Assembly (NCBI GenBank): GCA_964402895.1
Contig: CAYODR010000003.1
Location: 3,534 to 67,533, forward strand
Reading direction: 5' to 3'
Origin: an uncultured Candidatus Saccharibacteria bacterium
GTDB taxonomy: Bacteria; Patescibacteriota; Minisyncoccia; Phycocordibacterales; UBA9973
DNA: 64,000 bases
Shown: positions 12,387 through 21,838 of the stretch, piece after piece
How the letters are laid out: the number at the start of each line of letters is the position of its first letter
How positions within the stretch are numbered: the stretch's first letter is position 1
Translations under genes and position numbers: made by a program
The notes under the pieces: model-generated
What the model was told of the DNA's origin: nothing
Database searches by the model: none
Seen by the model: the letters and a program-made list of their open reading frames with translations, nothing else

Positions 12387-12430
12387 ATACAAAAATCCAC
12401 ATTTACCATTATATACGAAACTAAATACTG

Positions 12431-12501
12431 TGCGGGATAAGGGAATCGAACCCTTCACCTCAGTTTGGAAAACTGATATTTTACCGATAAACTAATCCCG
12501 C
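12431..12501 (-). tRNA. tRNA-Trp (anticodon CCA)
   Basis: cloverleaf read by hand: acceptor GCGGGAT/ATCCCGC, anticodon loop UUCCAAA, T-arm GGTTCGATTCC; no encoded 3' CCA. Confidence 0.85.
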
Positions 12502-12575
12502 TTGTAAAAACTATGATATCAAAATTATTGATTAAAATCAATAATCCCCCGTGCACTTTTAACACGAGGGACTTT

Positions 12576-12797
12576 TTAATTTAAACTGATCCAATACTTA
12601 TTTCCTACCTTAGAGATAAACTCACCCAAGATGTAAGCTTTTGATTCAATCTTTTTTTGAAGCTCAGAAGTTTGATCTTTTACCAAATACCCCTTAAAGG
12701 TATCTTGATTTAAATCATGAATTTCAAGATTATCTCTCTCCATGACCAAAGATACATCTTCTGCCTTATTTTTTAAATTTTGACTTATTTGAAACAT
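12576..12797 (-). CDS. hypothetical small protein
   Basis: 73 aa ORF, no domain recognised. Confidence 0.35.
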   Translation of the reverse strand: MFQISQNLKNKAEDVSLVMERDNLEIHDLNQDTFKGYLVKDQTSELQKKIESKAYILGEFISKVGNKYWISLN

Positions 12798-12828
12798 TTT
12801 TTTAAATTTTACAAACTATATATTAATA

Positions 12829-13587
12829 TTAAGACCTTGTCAATAGCTCTTCATATTTATTTTTTAAATCAGAATAATAATCATTATCATTTGGGAGCAT
12901 TACTTTAACTTCCCTACCTCCTATAAATTCATAAGAAGCATATATTTCTTTCTCATCTTCTTCAGACATATAAGATCTTGATGCTCTACCAAAATCAATC
13001 ACAACAGGATTTCCTGTATTAAAATCAATCATTACATTCTTAGCGTGCAAATCTCTATGATAAATCTTTCTTTCGTGCATTTTGTCCAAAAATGCACGAA
13101 GTTTTTTAAAAAAACTTTTTCCGTCTATATTATCAGGAATCAAATTGGGATTAAGCGAAGCTTCTTCTAGTGTACAACCATTTATATATTCCATAACTAC
13201 TACATGATCTTTGCTCATGTATTTTCTACCATCTGGTTTGAATTTAATTTTCATTGGAGAAACAATAGTTGCATAACCTTTTGGAACTTTCACACCAACA
13301 TCAATATCTTGAAGCTCATTTTGAAAAGCCATTTCTATATCTACATCATTGTTTCCCGGCAGTAAATTATGAACATGCTTAAAACATAAATCAGTATCTT
13401 CATCTGGATATTTAAAAACATCTGCAGTTTTACCAAAACCAACTTTATTTTCACTCGTAAAAATTTGTTCTGCAAAATTACAAAGGTTTTCTTTATAAGC
13501 TTCTTCTTCAAGAGTAGGAAATTTCTCTGATAAAGACTCTCTATCATGAATCTTGATCTGACCTAAAAACTTTTCCATATTTTCCAT
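12829..13587 (-). CDS. protein kinase-like fold protein (HRD and DFG catalytic motifs)
   Basis: GFGKTADVFK Gly-loop-like, YHRDLHAKNVMID catalytic loop, IDFGRA DFG motif. The ORF track extends over tRNA-Pro; the start at MENMEKF (13587) abuts the tRNA. Confidence 0.6.
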   Translation of the reverse strand: MENMEKFLGQIKIHDRESLSEKFPTLEEEAYKENLCNFAEQIFTSENKVGFGKTADVFKYPDEDTDLCFKHVHNLLPGNNDVDIEMAFQNELQDIDVGVKVPKGYATIVSPMKIKFKPDGRKYMSKDHVVVMEYINGCTLEEASLNPNLIPDNIDGKSFFKKLRAFLDKMHERKIYHRDLHAKNVMIDFNTGNPVVIDFGRASRSYMSEEDEKEIYASYEFIGGREVKVMLPNDNDYYSDLKNKYEELLTRS

Positions 13588-13588
13588 G

Positions 13589-13661
13589 TCGGGATGCAGG
13601 GATTCGAACCCTGAGTCACTTCTTCCCAAAAGAAGCATGTTAGCCGTTACACCACATCCCG
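13589..13661 (-). tRNA. tRNA-Pro (anticodon TGG)
   Basis: acceptor CGGGATG/CATCCCG, anticodon loop UUUGGGA, T-arm GGTTCGAATCC. Confidence 0.85.
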
Positions 13662-13704
13662 TGGTACATATCATACTAACAGAAAACTATATATAAATAA
13701 AGAG

Positions 13705-14067
13705 CTAGTCAAAAAATAAATCTATGTTTTGCAAAGACTTCTCTCTCCCTAAAGACACCAAAATAAAACCTATTTTAAAAATTTTAATACCACGACTTAA
13801 GCACAAAAATTCAATAGACCTATGAAACTTCAATAATTTGTTTTTTGTGATATTCTCTCCGGCTGAAACCCTAGAATGATTTTTTGAGGTTTTAACTTCA
13901 AAAAAATATACCCGATCTTCCCTACTTGCTAAAATATCTATTTCACCAAACTTTGTATTTATATTCCTTTCAATGATTATGAAACCCTTTTCTTTTAAAT
14001 ATTCAATTGCCAAGTCTTCTCCTATAAGACCTATTTTTTGACTGTTTGCTGAAAAGACTTTTATCAT
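13705..14067 (-). CDS. yraN: YraN-family (UPF0102) endonuclease-like protein
   Basis: GEDLAIEYLKEKGFIIIERN ... GEIDILA ... FFEVKTS pattern of UPF0102. Confidence 0.75.
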   Translation of the reverse strand: MIKVFSANSQKIGLIGEDLAIEYLKEKGFIIIERNINTKFGEIDILASREDRVYFFEVKTSKNHSRVSAGENITKNKLLKFHRSIEFLCLSRGIKIFKIGFILVSLGREKSLQNIDLFFD

Positions 14068-14180
14068 ATGTCCATAAGTGTTAGATAATAGCTATATTAT
14101 ATATGACCAATTTAAAATCTAGATAAAATTGGACACTTATTGGGCATATTATTTGTCTGTTATCCCACTTAACCACAGAG

Positions 14181-14189
14181 TTATCCACA
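14181..14189 (+). promoter_or_regulatory. perfect DnaA box TTATCCACA (plus a 7/9 box 15 nt upstream)
   Basis: read directly in the intergenic region between yraN and tRNA-Gly. Confidence 0.4.
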
Positions 14190-14296
14190 GTTTTTGTCAA
14201 AAAAGTATAGTTTTCAACATTTACTCACAATACTTTCAAATTTTGTAAAAATAAACAAAACAACTGCCGTCTTATAGACGGCAGTTGTTTATCTTG

Positions 14297-14367
14297 TGCG
14301 GCTACAGGGAATCGAACCCTGGTCTCGTCCTTGGCAAGGACGCATTCTACCACTAAACCATAACCGC
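14297..14367 (-). tRNA. tRNA-Gly (anticodon GCC)
   Basis: acceptor GCGGTTA/TAGCCGC, anticodon loop UUGCCAA, T-arm GGTTCGATTCC. Confidence 0.85.
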
Positions 14368-14451
14368 AAGGTGTATATATTATACTCAGGAATATACTTT
14401 TTGCAATAAATACTTCCCTTTTTATATAGCAAATGCTAAAGTTTAGCTGAT

Positions 14452-14523
14452 GCACCTATGGTGAAATGGATATCACAACTGTCTTCGGAACAGTTATTCT
14501 GGGTTCGAATCCTGGTAGGTGCA
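14452..14523 (+). tRNA. tRNA-Arg (anticodon TCG)
   Basis: acceptor GCACCTA/TAGGTGC, anticodon loop CUUCGGA, T-arm GGTTCGAATCC. Confidence 0.85.
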
Positions 14524-14538
14524 CATAAAGACAAAACT

Positions 14539-18501: not shown

Positions 18502-19137
18502 ATGAAACATTTAATATCTTTTGACCTAGACGGTACTCTAACTACAGAGAATTCATGGTTTTTACTAAATAAAGCTATGGGTTTAACCCAAGAAGAAGAT
18601 AGTGAATTATTTAATGACTATCTATCTGGAAAGATCTCTTACGATGAATGGATGGATCTTATCATTTCTATTTATAAAAATAAGAAAGGGGACTTATCAA
18701 AAGATCAAGTAGATCAAATAGCAAATTCTATAAATATCCGAGAAGGAGCTTTTGAAGTGGTTGAAAAACTCAAATCTATGGGTCATGAAGTGATTATAAT
18801 ATCTGGCTCTGTAGATACAATCTGTAATCAAATAGCTCAAAAACTAAACATAGATACATATCTAACTGCATCACAATTAGTTTTTAATAATGAAAACCAA
18901 ATTACAGACATTGAAACAATGGGGGACGAAAGATCCGCAAAAATGAAACTCTTGAAAAACTATTGTGACCAAAAGGGCTACACGCTAGATATGGTGATAG
19001 CCATAGGAGATGGTGGAAATGATTTAGAAATATTTGAAAATGTTAAAGGTATCTTAATAGGAGAAAATACTGAACTTTCAAATGTTGCATGGAAGAAAGT
19101 GTCTAAACTATCTGAGATACCAGATCTTATGGAATAA
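18502..19137 (+). CDS. HAD-superfamily hydrolase (phosphoserine phosphatase-like, subfamily IB)
   Basis: motif I FDLDGTL, motif IV IGDGGNDLEIF. Confidence 0.75.
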   Translation: MKHLISFDLDGTLTTENSWFLLNKAMGLTQEEDSELFNDYLSGKISYDEWMDLIISIYKNKKGDLSKDQVDQIANSINIREGAFEVVEKLKSMGHEVIIISGSVDTICNQIAQKLNIDTYLTASQLVFNNENQITDIETMGDERSAKMKLLKNYCDQKGYTLDMVIAIGDGGNDLEIFENVKGILIGENTELSNVAWKKVSKLSEIPDLME

Positions 19138-19225: not shown

Positions 19226-19462
19226 TTAAAGGAACATTAACCATCCTCCAAATATGGTAATTAATCCTGACCATATAGCAATTGCTCCTGATTTTAAACT
19301 ACTTGCTCTGTTATCTGATAAAGAGAAAAGCAGTATTAGTAGTGCTCCAGATATCAATGCTAATCCACACCAGTGAATATCTTTTGTCTGGAACATCATT
19401 ACAAGTGCAATAGAGAACAACAGTGTTGTAATGGCTTGGGGAATAAAAAAGAAATTTTTCAT
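19226..19462 (-). CDS. small two-TM membrane protein (78 aa)
   Basis: two hydrophobic helices; its start codon lies 5 nt downstream of a 19-bp hairpin and about 120 nt downstream of the hammerhead motif on the same strand. Confidence 0.45.
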   Translation of the reverse strand: MKNFFFIPQAITTLLFSIALVMMFQTKDIHWCGLALISGALLILLFSLSDNRASSLKSGAIAIWSGLITIFGGWLMFL

Positions 19463-19468
19463 ATTTTT

Positions 19469-19521
19469 AATTTAATTGGTTACTTGAATATCCATAAGAA
19501 ACTCAAGTAACCAATTAAATT
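19469..19521 (-). other. perfect 19-bp stem-loop (15-nt loop) immediately 5' of the start codon at 19462
   Basis: ttaattggttacttga ... tcaagtaaccaattaa perfect inverted repeat, extendable by 3 bp. Confidence 0.7.
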
Positions 19522-19537
19522 TATTTAAAAGAACAAT

Positions 19538-19586
19538 CTGTTTCGTCCTTTTGGACTCATCAGTACGAATACACATTCGTATACAG
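19538..19586 (-). ncRNA. hammerhead ribozyme motif (type III topology)
   Basis: minus strand reads CUGU-A / UACGAAU-GUGU-AUUCGUA / CUGAUGA / GUCC-AAAA-GGAC / GAA / ACAG. The core C3-A9, G10.1-C11.1, G12A13A14 and A15.1-U16.1 are all canonical, with a GUA cleavage triplet, a 7-bp stem I, 4-bp stem II and 4-bp stem III. Confidence 0.7.
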
Positions 19587-19821
19587 TGTGGACCTATTAC
19601 TAGATCCACTGACATCCCACATTTTTGTTAACCACCAATGCGAGGACAGTTATGTTTTTACACAACGGAATGCCATATATAGCGAAACACTTATTTTGAG
19701 ACATTGTTTCAGAGATGTCTTTCACTTTTTCAGTGTATGTATGCTTCACAGCAGACATCACTTACTTTCTGTTGCCAACCGGCTGTTCGTGCTATTGAAC
19801 AGTGTGAGACCGGTCCGAACG

Positions 19822-20865
19822 TCATTTGTCATAATGCCATGCTGCATCAAACACTGGAATCAGAAATTGTTTGTTAGACAATCCTTTTTTCCGTGCCATG
19901 GTCACCGCTACTGCAAATCCTGCCTTTCCTGTTCTCCCAAACTCACTCAACGCTTCGTGGTGAAAGTCATCCCATTTAGCAACCCATTCACTTTTATCTG
20001 TCGGTTTGAAGCCGACAGCTTTCATGAAAGTTTGATCAATGTGATTACTTGTTACCAAAGCCACTGTATCAAGATGAGGTATTGAAGCCTCAAGAGCGGG
20101 GAACGGAAACATTGGATTTGCATATGTAGTGCCAGGTAAATCATGTCTTGCAATAACAGAAGGGTCTTCTATACCAAATACTCTTTGATACTTGCCGGGG
20201 AATCTCTTCCGATAGGCAAGAGCAGATGATACTGCTTCAAATCCCACAATTGTTATTCCAGGAAGCAATGATTTAAACTCTGTTCCCATGGAGAGCGTTG
20301 TTGTGCCGTTGCCTACGGGGGCAACTAAAATATCTGGTGTGATATTAGCATCAACAATCTCTTTTGCGAAAGGGCGAAATGCATCGATTGCAACTTCGTT
20401 AATACAATCCCCGCGTCCAGTAATATCACCCATCACGTGATTTATATACTTGGTACCGCGGTGTTCGGCGAGGAATCGCTTGATGAACATTGGAAAGCCA
20501 TTAACGTATGCTTCGGCAGGGGTGAGGTGTAGCTCAGCACCGGCCTTTTCGATTGCGGTTTCGCGTGCCCTTTCACCGCCAGCAGGTACAGCTATCTTGA
20601 TTGGGTAACCAAGGGCTGTTGCAATTGCGGCGGCTGCACGTCCTCCTGAGCCGGAAGTAGTTTCAAGCAGTGTATCACCAGGTTTAATAATGCCTAAGCA
20701 TTCTTTCTGATAAATAAGCTGTGAAAATATCCTAGCATAATGACATTCTCCGTAAGGTAATTTATATTCCATCTTGAAATGGTATATGTTTCCCTCAAAC
20801 TCAATTGTTTTAATTGGTGAGTTTTTAACGGCATCCAAAATTTGGTTGTAAAGAGCTGTTCTCAT
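19822..20865 (-). CDS. PALP-fold (tryptophan-synthase-beta/cysteine-synthase-like) protein in a GC-richer island
   Basis: TSGSGGRAAAAIATALGYPIKIAVPAG and VAPVGNGTTTLSMG align by eye with CysK-type fold II PLP enzymes. The expected Schiff-base Lys position reads GECHYAR (Lys apparently absent). GC content is visibly above the surroundings. Confidence 0.6.
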   Translation of the reverse strand: MRTALYNQILDAVKNSPIKTIEFEGNIYHFKMEYKLPYGECHYARIFSQLIYQKECLGIIKPGDTLLETTSGSGGRAAAAIATALGYPIKIAVPAGGERARETAIEKAGAELHLTPAEAYVNGFPMFIKRFLAEHRGTKYINHVMGDITGRGDCINEVAIDAFRPFAKEIVDANITPDILVAPVGNGTTTLSMGTEFKSLLPGITIVGFEAVSSALAYRKRFPGKYQRVFGIEDPSVIARHDLPGTTYANPMFPFPALEASIPHLDTVALVTSNHIDQTFMKAVGFKPTDKSEWVAKWDDFHHEALSEFGRTGKAGFAVAVTMARKKGLSNKQFLIPVFDAAWHYDK

Positions 20866-20930
20866 AATATGGGTGAGTGGGGGTTTATGCACTCGGCCGA
20901 GATGCACAAACGACTCACCTCACATCAATC
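20866..20930 (-). promoter_or_regulatory. GC-rich nested-hairpin leader upstream of the PALP gene
   Basis: ggtgagt...actcacc outer stem enclosing a tgcaNctcggccgagNtgca palindrome. Confidence 0.35.
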
Positions 20931-21070
20931 ATCTGACAACAGTATAGCTTGTTTGTAAAGGATTGTCAATATACAATGAAATAATATATTGTAAATAGCA
21001 ATAAAAACATTGTAAAATAAGAATAAAAAAGTGTTGATAAATCTTCAACAACATGATACAATTTTAATAT

Positions 21071-21838
21071 ATGATTGAAGAAATACTTAAAGAATTAAAC
21101 TTTGGGGAAAAAGAAATAGCTATATATATCTGCGTACTTGAGCACGGTAAATTGTCTGCTGCTACACTTTCAAGAATTACAAAAATCAACAGAACAACTG
21201 TTTATAGTGTGACTAAAGAGCTTATAAATAAAGGAGTTATCACGGAAGATATTGGGGGATCAAATAGATACTATACAGCACTACCACCAGAAGAACTTCG
21301 TAATTTGCATAATAAAAAACAAAAAGAACTAGAAAAAGAAGGTTTTTTAGTAGAAGAAGCTATTAAAAAACTTATAAATATACCTAAAAATAAACATTAT
21401 TCTGTACCAAAAATAGTTTTTACCGAAGAAAGAAATCTAAATGAAGTTCTTTATAAAAAACTTCCTATCTGGATAAAAAGTGCTGAAGGAAAAGACCAAA
21501 ACTGGTGGGGATTCCAAGATTCTTCTTTTATTGAAAGTCACAAAGAATGGTTTAAATACCATTGGGAGATTTTTCCTGAAAATTATGGAACAAGACTTTT
21601 CACTAATGAAAAAACTCCTGAAAAGGATTTTGCTCAAGAAATAAACAAGCAAGATATACGAAAAATTAAATACTGGGATAAATCAAAAGAATTTACAGCT
21701 ACGCATGCAGTCCTTGGTGACTATGTACTTTTTTGTGTAACAAGACAGCATCCTTATTATTTAGTAGAAATTCATGATGCTGTGATGGCAGAAAATATGA
21801 GGCAAATGTTTAAAGCTATGTGGGAAGAACTATCCTAA
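21071..21838 (+). CDS. TrmB-like transcriptional regulator
   Basis: N-terminal HTH LNFGEKEIAIYICVLEHGKLSAATLSRITKINRTTVYSVTKELINKGVI resembles the TrmB family. Confidence 0.55.
   Translation: MIEEILKELNFGEKEIAIYICVLEHGKLSAATLSRITKINRTTVYSVTKELINKGVITEDIGGSNRYYTALPPEELRNLHNKKQKELEKEGFLVEEAIKKLINIPKNKHYSVPKIVFTEERNLNEVLYKKLPIWIKSAEGKDQNWWGFQDSSFIESHKEWFKYHWEIFPENYGTRLFTNEKTPEKDFAQEINKQDIRKIKYWDKSKEFTATHAVLGDYVLFCVTRQHPYYLVEIHDAVMAENMRQMFKAMWEELS

What the first reader, a model, noticed from the sequence alone, without database searches (positions are those of the whole stretch)
19520..20940. GC-richer island encoding a PALP-fold protein that seems to lack the Schiff-base lysine
The segment is conspicuously more GC-rich than the flanking ~30% GC genome, as judged by eye. 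The encoded protein has the fold II PLP-enzyme landmarks: the TSGSGG... nucleotide-like loop and the Gly-rich VGNGTT phosphate loop. In my manual alignment to CysK-type enzymes, though, the position of the catalytic lysine (xSVKDR) reads GECHYAR. A nested GC-rich hairpin lies in the 5' region, and the 3' flank carries the hammerhead motif. Composition plus ribozyme association suggest a horizontally acquired module, possibly a pseudoenzyme or a non-canonical PLP protein.
Basis: partly seen in the sequence, partly recalled or inferred. Interest (0 to 1): 0.55.

Follow-up and report, generated by a model that had tools for sequence, protein, structure and literature searches.

The report
Lysine-less CysK-like protein with ribozyme-tailed RNA
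The GC-rich island holds a well-conserved relative of cysteine synthase whose cofactor-anchoring lysine is replaced by tyrosine, as in a large unstudied family from tiny symbiotic microbes. It was swapped in from another genome and is followed by an undescribed structured RNA that ends in a hammerhead ribozyme.

Summary
ORF 19822-20907(-) has the highest GC (0.43) and GC3 (0.35) of 51 ORFs in a 0.33-GC window. It passes Pfam PALP and models confidently as a CysK/CBS fold. Four alignment approaches put Tyr57 where the Schiff-base Lys belongs (GECHYAR versus GSVKDR).

This is not decay. The protein belongs to a large clade, labelled CPR or DPANN wherever a source names it, in which His-Tyr is 99% conserved. 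No compensating lysine is conserved, and dN/dS is about 0.1. The gene almost always sits divergently beside a TrmB-family regulator. Distant members are fused or adjacent to ProC-like NAD(P) reductases. I found no NCBIfam model, solved structure or paper for the clade; sources call it "cysteine synthase".

Horizontal replacement of this gene alone is supported. It is 86% nt identical to a 0.42-GC relative, while the neighbouring regulator is 69% and saturated at synonymous sites.

The hammerhead is real in form but is not a feature of the protein family. It is the 3' end of a roughly 290-nt covariation-supported RNA with no Rfam match. The same RNA follows Ro60 (rsr) genes elsewhere.

Biochemical function is unknown. 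My best guess is an enzyme with a non-covalently bound cofactor.

The parts
19822..20907 (-). PALP-fold (CysK/CBS-like) ORF. It is 361 aa from GTG 20907. Homology of the leader suggests the real start is ATG 20868 (348 aa).
20731..20751 (-). Motif G53-E-C-H56-Y57-A-R59, which replaces G-S-V-K-D-R. Tyr57 (20737-20739) occupies the Schiff-base lysine position.
20638..20664 (-). E-T-T-S-G-S-G-G-R, the substrate-carboxylate (Asn) loop, with the O3'-binding Asn changed to Ser.
20299..20313 (-). G199-N-G-T-T203, the Gly-rich phosphate-binding loop (canonical form GTGGT). G-N-G is at least 95% conserved in the clade.
20934..20969 (-). Near-consensus sigma-70 promoter TTGACA-17-TATACT, flanked by the inverted repeat TGACAA/TTGTCA. 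It is conserved upstream of the gene in 6 other loci and is the presumed operator of the TrmB-like regulator.
20865..20927 (-). 5' leader hairpin, nested and GC-rich (dG -30.3, z -6.1). It is the conserved leader hairpin of the family with a window-specific GC-rich insert, and it pairs the AGGUGA and the GTG.
21071..21838 (+). Divergent TrmB-family wHTH regulator with host-like composition (GC 0.306, GC3 0.188). It is the invariable neighbour of the PALP gene.
19720..19820 (-). 5' domain ('motif A') of a structured RNA that starts right after the TGA stop. It comprises P1, the U-N-UCACA loop, P2, GGCAACAGAAAG, P3 and AAAAAGUGA.
19590..19719 (-). Middle and 3' domains of the same RNA: a pseudoknotted hairpin and conserved blocks UCCUCGC.UUGGUGG and GUCAG.GG. 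This part is colinear with the RNA downstream of an rsr (Ro60) gene in L059.
19535..19589 (-). Type III hammerhead with predicted cleavage after CUGUA. The core is intact, helix I has 7 bp, helix II has 4 bp, and helix III is short.
19467..19523 (.). AT-rich long hairpin immediately before the next start codon. It is homologous to the leader hairpin that precedes the PALP gene in L028 and L030.
19226..19462 (-). 78-aa hydrophobic small ORF downstream on the same strand. No terminator-like site was found between it and the PALP gene.

Best explanation
The island is a functional gene for a lysine-less member of the CysK/CBS branch of fold-type II (PALP) proteins. It belongs to a large clade, labelled CPR or DPANN wherever a source gives a name, in which the Schiff-base Lys is replaced by Tyr with an invariant His before it. 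The phosphate loop is remodelled to G-N-G-x-x, and the rest of the active-site scaffold is kept.

Shown:
- Fold, motif placement, clade size and purifying selection.
- Obligate pairing with a divergent TrmB-family regulator.
- Recurrent fusion or adjacency to ProC-like NAD(P) reductases in distant members.
- Replacement of this gene alone by a copy from a genome of about 0.42 GC.

Inferred:
- The protein still binds a phosphorylated B6-type cofactor or similar ligand non-covalently, through the retained phosphate and carboxylate loops.
- His56/Tyr57 serve as acid/base on an amino-acid-like substrate. Known lysine-less B6 enzymes of fold type I (ColD, E1) work on a comparable principle.
- In relatives the product is handed to an imine-type reductase.
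- The TrmB-like protein represses the gene at the conserved inverted repeat that brackets a near-consensus promoter.
- The transcript carries a conserved 5' hairpin and a 3' structured RNA whose end is cut by a hammerhead, which separates it from the downstream small ORF.
For: Fold: Pfam PALP 86.2 bits; AF2 pLDDT 91.2; Foldseek hits to CapA1, CBS and CysK.

K to Y placement: plus the gapless GSHYDR versus GSVKDR/GSHKDR comparison.

Clade size and conservation:
- 328 50%-identity clusters at E <= 1e-10. Of the best 150, about 97 read HY.R and only 5 read K.
- Across 101 diverse members H56 and Y57 are 99% conserved, H157, G86, G199, G259 and G324 are 100%, and D354 is 97%. The only conserved Lys is K45, which canonical enzymes also have.

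Selection: dN 0.061, dS 0.64 against L007.

Genomic context:
- The TrmB gene is divergent in 16 of 16 core loci, in L028 and L030, and in the distant L175.
- A ProC-like domain is fused in P0128 and P0174, and a ProC-like gene is adjacent in L024 and L177.
- An SDR gene follows the PALP gene in L001, L010 and L012.

Horizontal replacement:
- PALP is 86% nt identical to L007 while TrmB plus the intergenic region is 69%. TrmB pS is 0.84, which is saturated.
- GC3 is discordant with neighbours in both directions across loci.
- PALP and TrmB pairwise identities are uncorrelated (rho 0.13).

Promoter and leader conservation.
Against: - No biochemical data exist, and cofactor binding is inferred from motifs only.
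- In this sub-clade the O3'-binding Asn is Ser and the N1-contacting Ser of GISSGA is replaced (GRTGKA). PLP or PMP binding could therefore be lost.
- No reductase gene lies next to the gene in this window.
- The reductase link comes from distant members at about 30% identity.
- Part of the GC excess sits at codon positions 1 and 2, so it reflects amino-acid composition.
- The 3' boundary of the transferred segment could not be checked, because the closest relative's contig ends at the gene.
Confidence: 0.55

Rival explanations
1. A ligand-sensing, non-catalytic CysK-like protein that acts as co-regulator of the adjacent TrmB-family transcription factor. This would parallel CysK-CymR in Bacillus and the other moonlighting roles of CysK.
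For: - The catalytic Lys is lost.
- The protein is strictly paired with a wHTH regulator across deep divergence.
- The substrate and phosphate loops are retained, so a small molecule could still bind.
Against: - Divergent regulator/target gene pairs are the ordinary arrangement for a regulated enzyme.
- C-terminal fusions to ProC-like reductase domains and operons with reductases and transporters point to metabolism.
- About 20 polar residues are conserved clade-wide.
Confidence: 0.2
2. An ordinary PLP-dependent cysteine synthase or CBS whose lysine was simply misplaced by alignment, or supplied from elsewhere in the chain.
For: JGI names relatives 'cysteine synthase'. The overall fold is the same.
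Against: - Four alignment approaches agree on a non-lysine residue at the site.
- NCBIfam CysK/CysM scores are 55-58 bits against cut-offs of 344-394.
- No clade-specific conserved Lys exists.
- Canonical relatives retrieved in the same searches keep K, N and GTGGT together.
Confidence: 0.03
3. The GC excess is intrinsic (Gly/Ala/Arg-rich conserved protein, high expression, structured RNA) rather than a sign of horizontal acquisition.
For: - GC1 and GC2 are also raised (0.53 and 0.43).
- The 3' RNA is GC-rich, as structured RNAs are in AT-rich genomes.
- The promoter is near-consensus.
Against: - GC3 is also the highest of 51 ORFs.
- In relatives the gene's GC3 deviates both upward and downward from its neighbours.
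- The gene is 86% nt identical to a 0.42-GC genome's copy, while the adjacent gene is 69% identical with saturated synonymous sites.
Confidence: 0.12
4. A decaying pseudogene or a relic of a transferred gene.
For: The key catalytic residue is lost, and the N-terminus and leader differ from relatives.
Against: - The frame is intact.
- dN/dS is about 0.1.
- Identity is 47-89% across many lineages, with the same HY motif throughout.
Confidence: 0.01

Closest known systems
O-acetylserine sulfhydrylase / cystathionine beta-synthase / cysteate synthase CapA1 (fold-type II PLP enzymes, Pfam PF00291)
   Same: - Whole fold: Foldseek E about 1e-18 to 1e-19, target-normalised TM 0.74-0.84 for the best single-domain hits.
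- Strand and helix order.
- Substrate loop T-S-G-x-x-G.
- Gly-rich phosphate loop.
- The H-x-x-x-G-x-G and D-x-x-x-x-Y C-terminal motifs.
   Different: - The Schiff-base Lys is Tyr.
- The preceding residue is an invariant His.
- The Asn of the Asn-loop is Ser in this sub-clade.
- GTGGT becomes GNGTT, and GISSGA becomes GRTGKA.
- Scores are 6-7 fold below the NCBIfam CysK/CysM/CBS cut-offs.
PMP-dependent sugar dehydratases ColD and E1 (fold type I; from general knowledge, not tested here)
   Same: They are natural B6 enzymes in which the catalytic Lys is replaced (by His). The cofactor is held non-covalently, and E1 works with a separate NAD(P)H-dependent reductase.
   Different: They have a different fold and act on nucleotide-sugar substrates. 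This is an analogy of principle only, and nothing here shows PMP binding.
CysK as regulatory partner (CysK-CymR, CysK-CdiA, CYSL-1-EGL-9; from general knowledge)
   Same: A CysK-fold protein is genetically tied to a transcription factor, so a ligand-sensing role is possible.
   Different: Those CysK proteins keep the lysine and PLP. No interaction was tested here, and the TrmB-like protein has no C-terminal Ile tail.
Hammerhead ribozyme type III (Rfam RF00008)
   Same: CUGAUGA and GAAA cores, three helices, and ends open in helix III. Helix I covaries among five related copies.
   Different: The score is 41.1 bits, below the gathering score of 48.5. Helix III has only about 4 bp. The ribozyme sits at the 3' end of a larger conserved RNA inside a bacterial operon.
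Bacterial Y RNAs (YrlA/YrlB) encoded next to rsr (PMC4201824)
   Same: In L034 and L059 the same RNA lies directly downstream of a Ro60 (TROVE + vWA_Ro60) gene.
   Different: - About 290 nt rather than 80-130 nt.
- No GNCGAA motif.
- No recognised tRNA-like arms.
- No Rfam hit.
- No rsr gene in this window.

Membership tests
Fold-type II PLP-dependent enzymes (Pfam PALP, PF00291) | Domain score above the Pfam gathering threshold | tested here: met
   86.2 bits against 35, covering only aa 38-245 of the profile
Fold-type II PLP-dependent enzymes (Pfam PALP, PF00291) | Two-domain alpha/beta fold of CysK/TrpB type | tested here: met
   AF2 pLDDT 91.2, pTM 0.89; Foldseek against PDB with probability 1.00, target-normalised TM 0.74-0.84 for the best single-domain hits
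Fold-type II PLP-dependent enzymes (Pfam PALP, PF00291) | Active-site lysine forming the internal aldimine with PLP | tested here: not met
   Tyr57 (His56 in some pairwise alignments) aligns to the K of SVKDR. Sister clades read GSHYDR. No other clade-conserved Lys exists apart from K45, which canonical enzymes share.
Fold-type II PLP-dependent enzymes (Pfam PALP, PF00291) | Gly-rich loop binding the cofactor phosphate | tested here: met
   G199-N-G-T-T aligns to GTGGT. G-N-G is 95-100% conserved.
Fold-type II PLP-dependent enzymes (Pfam PALP, PF00291) | Actual binding of PLP and PLP-dependent catalysis | not testable with these tools
   Needs spectroscopy and activity assays on purified protein.
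Cysteine synthase CysK/CysM and CBS (NCBIfam TIGR01136/01139/01138/01137) | Score above the curated equivalog or subfamily cut-off | tested here: not met
   57.8, 55.6, 54.4 and 40.8 bits against cut-offs of 344, 351, 394 and 510
Cysteine synthase CysK/CysM and CBS (NCBIfam TIGR01136/01139/01138/01137) | Asn-loop T-S-G-N-T-G (Asn to PLP O3') | tested here: not met
   The loop reads T-S-G-S-G-G. About a third of the wider HY clade keeps the N.
Hammerhead ribozyme type III (RF00008) | Rfam gathering score | tested here: not met
   41.1 bits against 48.5, local E 4.8e-7. Related copies score 40.3-47.6.
Hammerhead ribozyme type III (RF00008) | Conserved catalytic core and three helices, supported by covariation | tested here: met
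   CUGAUGAG and CGAAAC are present. Helix I reads UACGAAU/AUUCGUA here and is different but still paired in L059, L061, L076 and L136.
Hammerhead ribozyme type III (RF00008) | Self-cleavage | not testable with these tools
   Needs in vitro transcription and a cleavage assay.
Bacterial Y RNA (YrlA/YrlB) | Encoded next to rsr (Ro60 orthologue) | tested here: inconclusive
   True for L034 and L059. It is not true for the window or the other 9 loci; tblastn with rsr is negative.
Bacterial Y RNA (YrlA/YrlB) | 5' GNCGAA(N)G Ro-binding motif and tRNA-like D/T arms (PMC4201824) | tested here: not met
   The motif is absent from the alignment. There is no Rfam Y-RNA hit at E <= 10 or E <= 0.01.
TrmB-family transcription regulators (PF01978) | N-terminal TrmB wHTH domain | tested here: met
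   53.2 bits against 25.6, aa 6-74. Scores are far below the NCBIfam TrmB equivalog cut-offs, so it is a family member and not an orthologue of the sugar sensor.

The most novel reading that the evidence does not exclude
The His-Tyr clade is a new catalytic class of fold-type II B6 proteins that works without an internal aldimine. On this reading the cofactor is non-covalent (PMP-like) or different, His/Tyr act as acid-base, and the enzyme is coupled to a ProC-like imine reductase. It would supply a core metabolic step specific to ultra-small CPR/DPANN symbionts. Separately, the RNA behind the gene would be a new, large Ro60-associated non-coding RNA whose 3' end is made by a built-in hammerhead, leaving a 2',3'-cyclic phosphate.
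Probability: 0.25. Interest if true: 0.85.

Novelty: new variant of a known kind. Interest (0 to 1): 0.66.

Why it matters
- **Annotation.** Pipelines name these proteins "cysteine synthase" or "PLP-dependent enzyme". Metabolic reconstructions of CPR and DPANN genomes may therefore credit them with cysteine synthesis that a lysine-less protein probably cannot perform in the canonical way.
- **Enzymology.** A large, strongly conserved K-to-Y clade is a natural experiment on whether the fold-type II scaffold can work without an internal aldimine. The reductase fusions and the regulator pairing give concrete handles for finding its substrate.
- **Gene flow.** The locus shows single-gene replacement between CPR lineages.
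- **RNA biology.** The locus exposes an undescribed covarying RNA joined to hammerhead ribozymes and sometimes placed next to Ro60. That makes ribozyme-defined RNA ends, and a possible link to RNA quality control in these organisms, testable.

Tried and rejected
- **AFDB50 fold search.** The library was not available.
- **Literature.** Searches covered lysine-less fold-II enzymes, CPR cysteine synthase, Tyr-for-Lys and hammerhead with Y RNA. Nothing on this clade or this RNA turned up. One search was badly framed.
- **Defence or toxin-antitoxin module.** PADLOC gives nothing for the PALP protein and only weak wHTH similarity for the regulator.
- **Carriage on phages or plasmids.** tblastn was negative in both collections. 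The RNA motif is absent from IMG/VR apart from chance hits of at most 24 bits.
- **Hammerhead as a family feature.** No hammerhead core lies within 800 nt downstream of the gene in the other loci.
- **SECIS or read-through element after the TGA.** Rejected because the distance and frame from TGA to the helix differ among loci.
- **Opposite-strand transcription of the RNA.** Rejected because the invariant and variable G-U pairs would become A-C mismatches.
- **Known ribozymes or riboswitches for motif A.** There is no Rfam hit at E <= 10.
- **Resemblance to RNase P J11/12.** The GCAACAGAAAG block looks similar, but this is from memory and was not tested.
- **Metal site from the conserved His and Asp residues.** H157, H255, D354 and Y359 align to residues that canonical CysK/CBS proteins also have, so they are not clade-specific.
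Full report
**What is at the coordinates**

The finding's span contains one long ORF on the minus strand, 19822-20907 (361 aa from a GTG). In 200-nt windows GC rises to 0.40-0.535 between 19600 and 20800 and falls to 0.25-0.33 on both sides. I compared it with 51 crude ORFs of the window, which average GC 0.333 +/- 0.035 and GC3 0.233 +/- 0.047. This ORF has the highest GC (0.434) and the highest GC3 (0.345). GC1 (0.529) and GC2 (0.428) are also raised. The compositional island is therefore real, and it extends about 230 nt past the stop codon.

**Fold and the missing lysine**

- Pfam PALP matches at 86.2 bits (cut-off 35), but only over residues 38-245.
- NCBIfam gives weak CysK, CysM and CBS hits of 41-58 bits against cut-offs of 344-510.
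- An AlphaFold2 model built on 23 homologues is confident (pLDDT 91.2, pTM 0.89).
- Its best PDB matches are cysteate synthase CapA1, CBS and CysK, with target-normalised TM 0.74-0.84 for the best single-domain hits.
- Pairwise phmmer alignments to PDB chains, a family-profile hmmsearch against PDB and a MAFFT alignment with a canonical CysK all put a non-lysine residue of G-E-C-H-Y-A-R opposite the lysine of S-V-K-D-R. Most give Tyr57; two of the pairwise alignments give His56.
- More distant relatives read G-S-H-Y-D-R. This has the same length as G-S-V-K-D-R and G-S-H-K-D-R, so the change is a direct K-to-Y substitution.

"GNGTT" is the phosphate loop (canonical GTGGT). GISSGA is replaced by GRTGKA.

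**Not a one-off and not decay**

A search of 5.8 billion proteins found about 80 clusters at 47-79% identity, all with L-P-Y-G-E-C-H-Y-[AS]-R. Searching with a 30%-identical member uncovered sister clades with the same signature. The few that carry a source name are labelled Peregrinibacteria, Abawacabacteria, Patescibacteria group and Nanoarchaeia, with one labelled Psychrobium sp..

An exhaustive profile search of 1.84 billion representatives gave 328 clusters at E <= 1e-10. Of the best 150, about 97 carry HY.R, about 25 carry close variants, and only 5 carry the canonical set K / TSGNTG / GTGGT.

In an alignment of 101 diverse members:
- H56 and Y57 are 99% conserved.
- H157, G86, G199, G259 and G324 are 100% conserved.
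- N200 is 95%, D354 is 97% and Y359 is 95% conserved.
- The only conserved lysine is K45, which canonical enzymes also have in "K-x-E".

Against its closest relative (L007, 89% aa identity) dN is 0.061 and dS is 0.64. The gene is under strong purifying selection and the active-site scaffold is maintained.

I found no NCBIfam model, no solved structure and no paper for this clade. Sources label members "cysteine synthase" or "PLP-dependent enzyme/lyase/thiolase".

**Genomic context**

In the window and in all 15 distinct core-clade loci that I clustered, the gene sits head-to-head with a TrmB-family wHTH gene of about 254 aa, while all other neighbours vary. The pairing also holds in L028 and L030. 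It holds in a distant member too (L175).

In L024 the regulator faces an operon of a ProC-like reductase, a 174-aa protein and the HY-PALP gene. P0128 and P0174 are HY-PALP proteins fused to a C-terminal ProC-like (PF03807) domain. L177 has a ProC-like or 2-hydroxyacid-dehydrogenase-like gene, an SSF transporter and then the HY-PALP gene. An SDR gene follows the PALP gene in L001, L010 and L012.

The window gene has a near-consensus promoter, TTGACA-17-TATACT (11 of 12). The promoter and a flanking inverted repeat, TGACAA...TTGTCA, are conserved upstream of the gene in L004, L007, L018, L020, L028 and L030. This is a plausible operator, but that is an inference.

**Horizontal acquisition**

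The window gene is 86% nt identical to that of L007, whose genome has about 0.42 GC like the gene itself. The adjacent regulator plus intergenic region is only 69% identical. Synonymous sites of the regulator are saturated (pS 0.84), while those of the PALP gene are not.

Across loci the gene's GC3 departs from its neighbours in both directions:
- L001: 0.58 against 0.37.
- L017: 0.52 against 0.34.
- L004: 0.28 against 0.62.
- L012: gene and regulator are both foreign.

Pairwise identities of PALP and TrmB are uncorrelated (Spearman 0.13 over 105 pairs). The flanking synteny (XerC/D, ExoIII, TrmB) recurs in L004 and L024. The best reading is therefore in-place replacement of the PALP gene by a foreign allele, and not insertion of an island. 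The gene was not found on phages or plasmids.

**The 5' hairpin**

Positions 20865-20927(-) fold into a nested hairpin (dG -30.3 against -15.2 for shuffles; z -6.1). Relatives have a simpler hairpin at the same place that covaries (UUUGAGUGG-loop-CCACUUAAA), about 12-15 nt before an ATG that has no Shine-Dalgarno sequence. The window version carries an extra GC-rich insert, and its "AGGUGA" is part of the stem. By homology the true start is probably ATG 20868 (348 aa). A public annotation of the identical protein is 316 aa long and starts at Met46, which truncates conserved residues.

**The 3' RNA and the hammerhead**

Directly after the TGA lies a conserved RNA, which I call motif A (19720-19820). 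It consists of:
- helix P1 (CGGAYYGG / CCGRUUGG, with an invariant G-U pair);
- the loop U-N-UCACA;
- a variable hairpin P2;
- the invariant block UUGGCAACAGAA;
- a variable hairpin P3;
- AAAAAGUGA.

It follows the PALP gene in L018, L028 and L030. A pattern scan of metagenomes found eight more copies, none of them next to a PALP gene. On an unfitted MAFFT alignment of 12 copies, 97.6% of cells pair and 7 of 14 pairs show compensatory changes. None of 500 shuffles reaches the observed pairing or covariation, and the register-slide controls collapse. A covariance model finds one copy in the window (91 bits) and none in IMG/VR. No Rfam family matches.

The RNA continues with a hairpin whose loop pairs with a downstream 6-mer. 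This pairing covaries in six loci by inspection. Further blocks are colinear with L059 over about 200 nt, up to a type III hammerhead. The whole segment 19590-19830 folds with z -3.97.

The window hammerhead (19535-19589) scores 41.1 bits, below the Rfam gathering score of 48.5. It has an intact core, and related contigs contain similar copies scoring 40-47.6 bits, with up to two of these per contig and with covarying helix I. In L034 and L059 the gene immediately upstream of the RNA is a Ro60 orthologue (TROVE and vWA_Ro60). The RNA lacks the published YrlA features (PMC4201824), and no rsr gene is in the window.

No terminator-like site separates the PALP gene from the downstream 78-aa ORF. 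Hammerhead cleavage would therefore cut a co-transcript, which is an inference.

**Interpretation**

Shown:
- A functional, selected, lysine-less CysK/CBS-fold protein of a large undescribed clade.
- Pairing with a TrmB-family regulator.
- Horizontal replacement in this genome.
- A conserved 5' hairpin, and an undescribed 3' structured RNA that ends in a hammerhead.

Inferred:
- The protein binds a phosphorylated cofactor or ligand non-covalently.
- It uses His/Tyr chemistry on an amino-acid-like substrate.
- In relatives it is coupled to a ProC-like reductase.

The analogy to the lysine-less PMP enzymes ColD and E1, and to CysK acting as a regulatory partner, comes from general knowledge and not from tests here. 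The main rival is a ligand-sensing co-regulator role. The readings "canonical cysteine synthase" and "pseudogene" are effectively excluded.

Noticed in passing
window 19720-19820 (-); also L018:6080-6180, L028:3701-3802, L030:2159-2247, L034, L051, L059, L061, L076, L134, L135, L136: Undescribed structured RNA motif (P1, U-N-UCACA loop, P2, GGCAACAGAAAG, P3, AAAAAGUGA). It has strong covariation and no Rfam match. It follows the PALP gene in 4 lineages and unrelated genes in 8 others.
   Followed up: yes
L034 and L059 (gene upstream of the RNA motif): The same RNA lies directly downstream of a Ro60/Rsr orthologue (TROVE, vWA_Ro60). In L059 the full RNA of about 290 nt plus its hammerhead is colinear with the window copy. 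This makes a Y-RNA-like role a lead, although the YrlA hallmarks are absent.
   Followed up: partly
L059, L061, L076, L134, L136: Type III hammerheads scoring 40-47.6 bits (just under the Rfam gathering score) occur up to twice per contig, between small ORFs of unknown function. L076 has a further weak hit at 31 bits. This suggests hammerhead-punctuated operons in these CPR-like contigs.
   Followed up: partly
window 20865-20927 (-) and the equivalent leaders in L004, L007, L018, L020: A conserved leader hairpin lies about 12-15 nt before a start codon that has no Shine-Dalgarno sequence. The window copy has a GC-rich insertion and a shortened N-terminus. The public 316-aa annotation of this protein starts at Met46 and is probably too short.
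   Followed up: partly
window 19467-19523 versus L028:2574-2657 and L030:1074-1106: The AT-rich hairpin before the 78-aa ORF is homologous (79% over 84 nt) to the leader hairpin that precedes the PALP gene in L028 and L030. It appears to be a reusable 'hairpin then AUG' leader cassette.
   Followed up: no
L001:7080-7250, L010:6068-6140, L012:6056-6160, L034, L135: A second recurring element ('motif B') consists of a GC hairpin, then CCAYWUUUGAGA, a hairpin and UCUCAAAWUG. It lies downstream of the PALP gene in three loci and downstream of the RNA motif in two others. It may be a terminator plus the next gene's leader.
   Followed up: no
window 20934-20969 (-): The promoter with its flanking inverted repeat TGACAA/TTGTCA is conserved across seven loci. 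It is a candidate operator for the TrmB-like regulator.
   Followed up: partly
L026/L027 and L022/L023: Sister-clade HY-PALP genes sit in operons with AlaE-like exporters (L026), or next to a fold-type I aminotransferase and methyltransferases (L022). These are further hints of amino-acid metabolism.
   Followed up: no
window 12430-14524: Cluster of four tRNA genes: Gly-TCC, Pro-TGG, Gly-GCC and Arg-TCG.
   Followed up: no
window 18502-19137 (+): A HAD-family phosphatase gene lies about 700 nt beyond the PALP gene's 3' end, on the opposite strand. It is not conserved next to the PALP gene in other loci.
   Followed up: no
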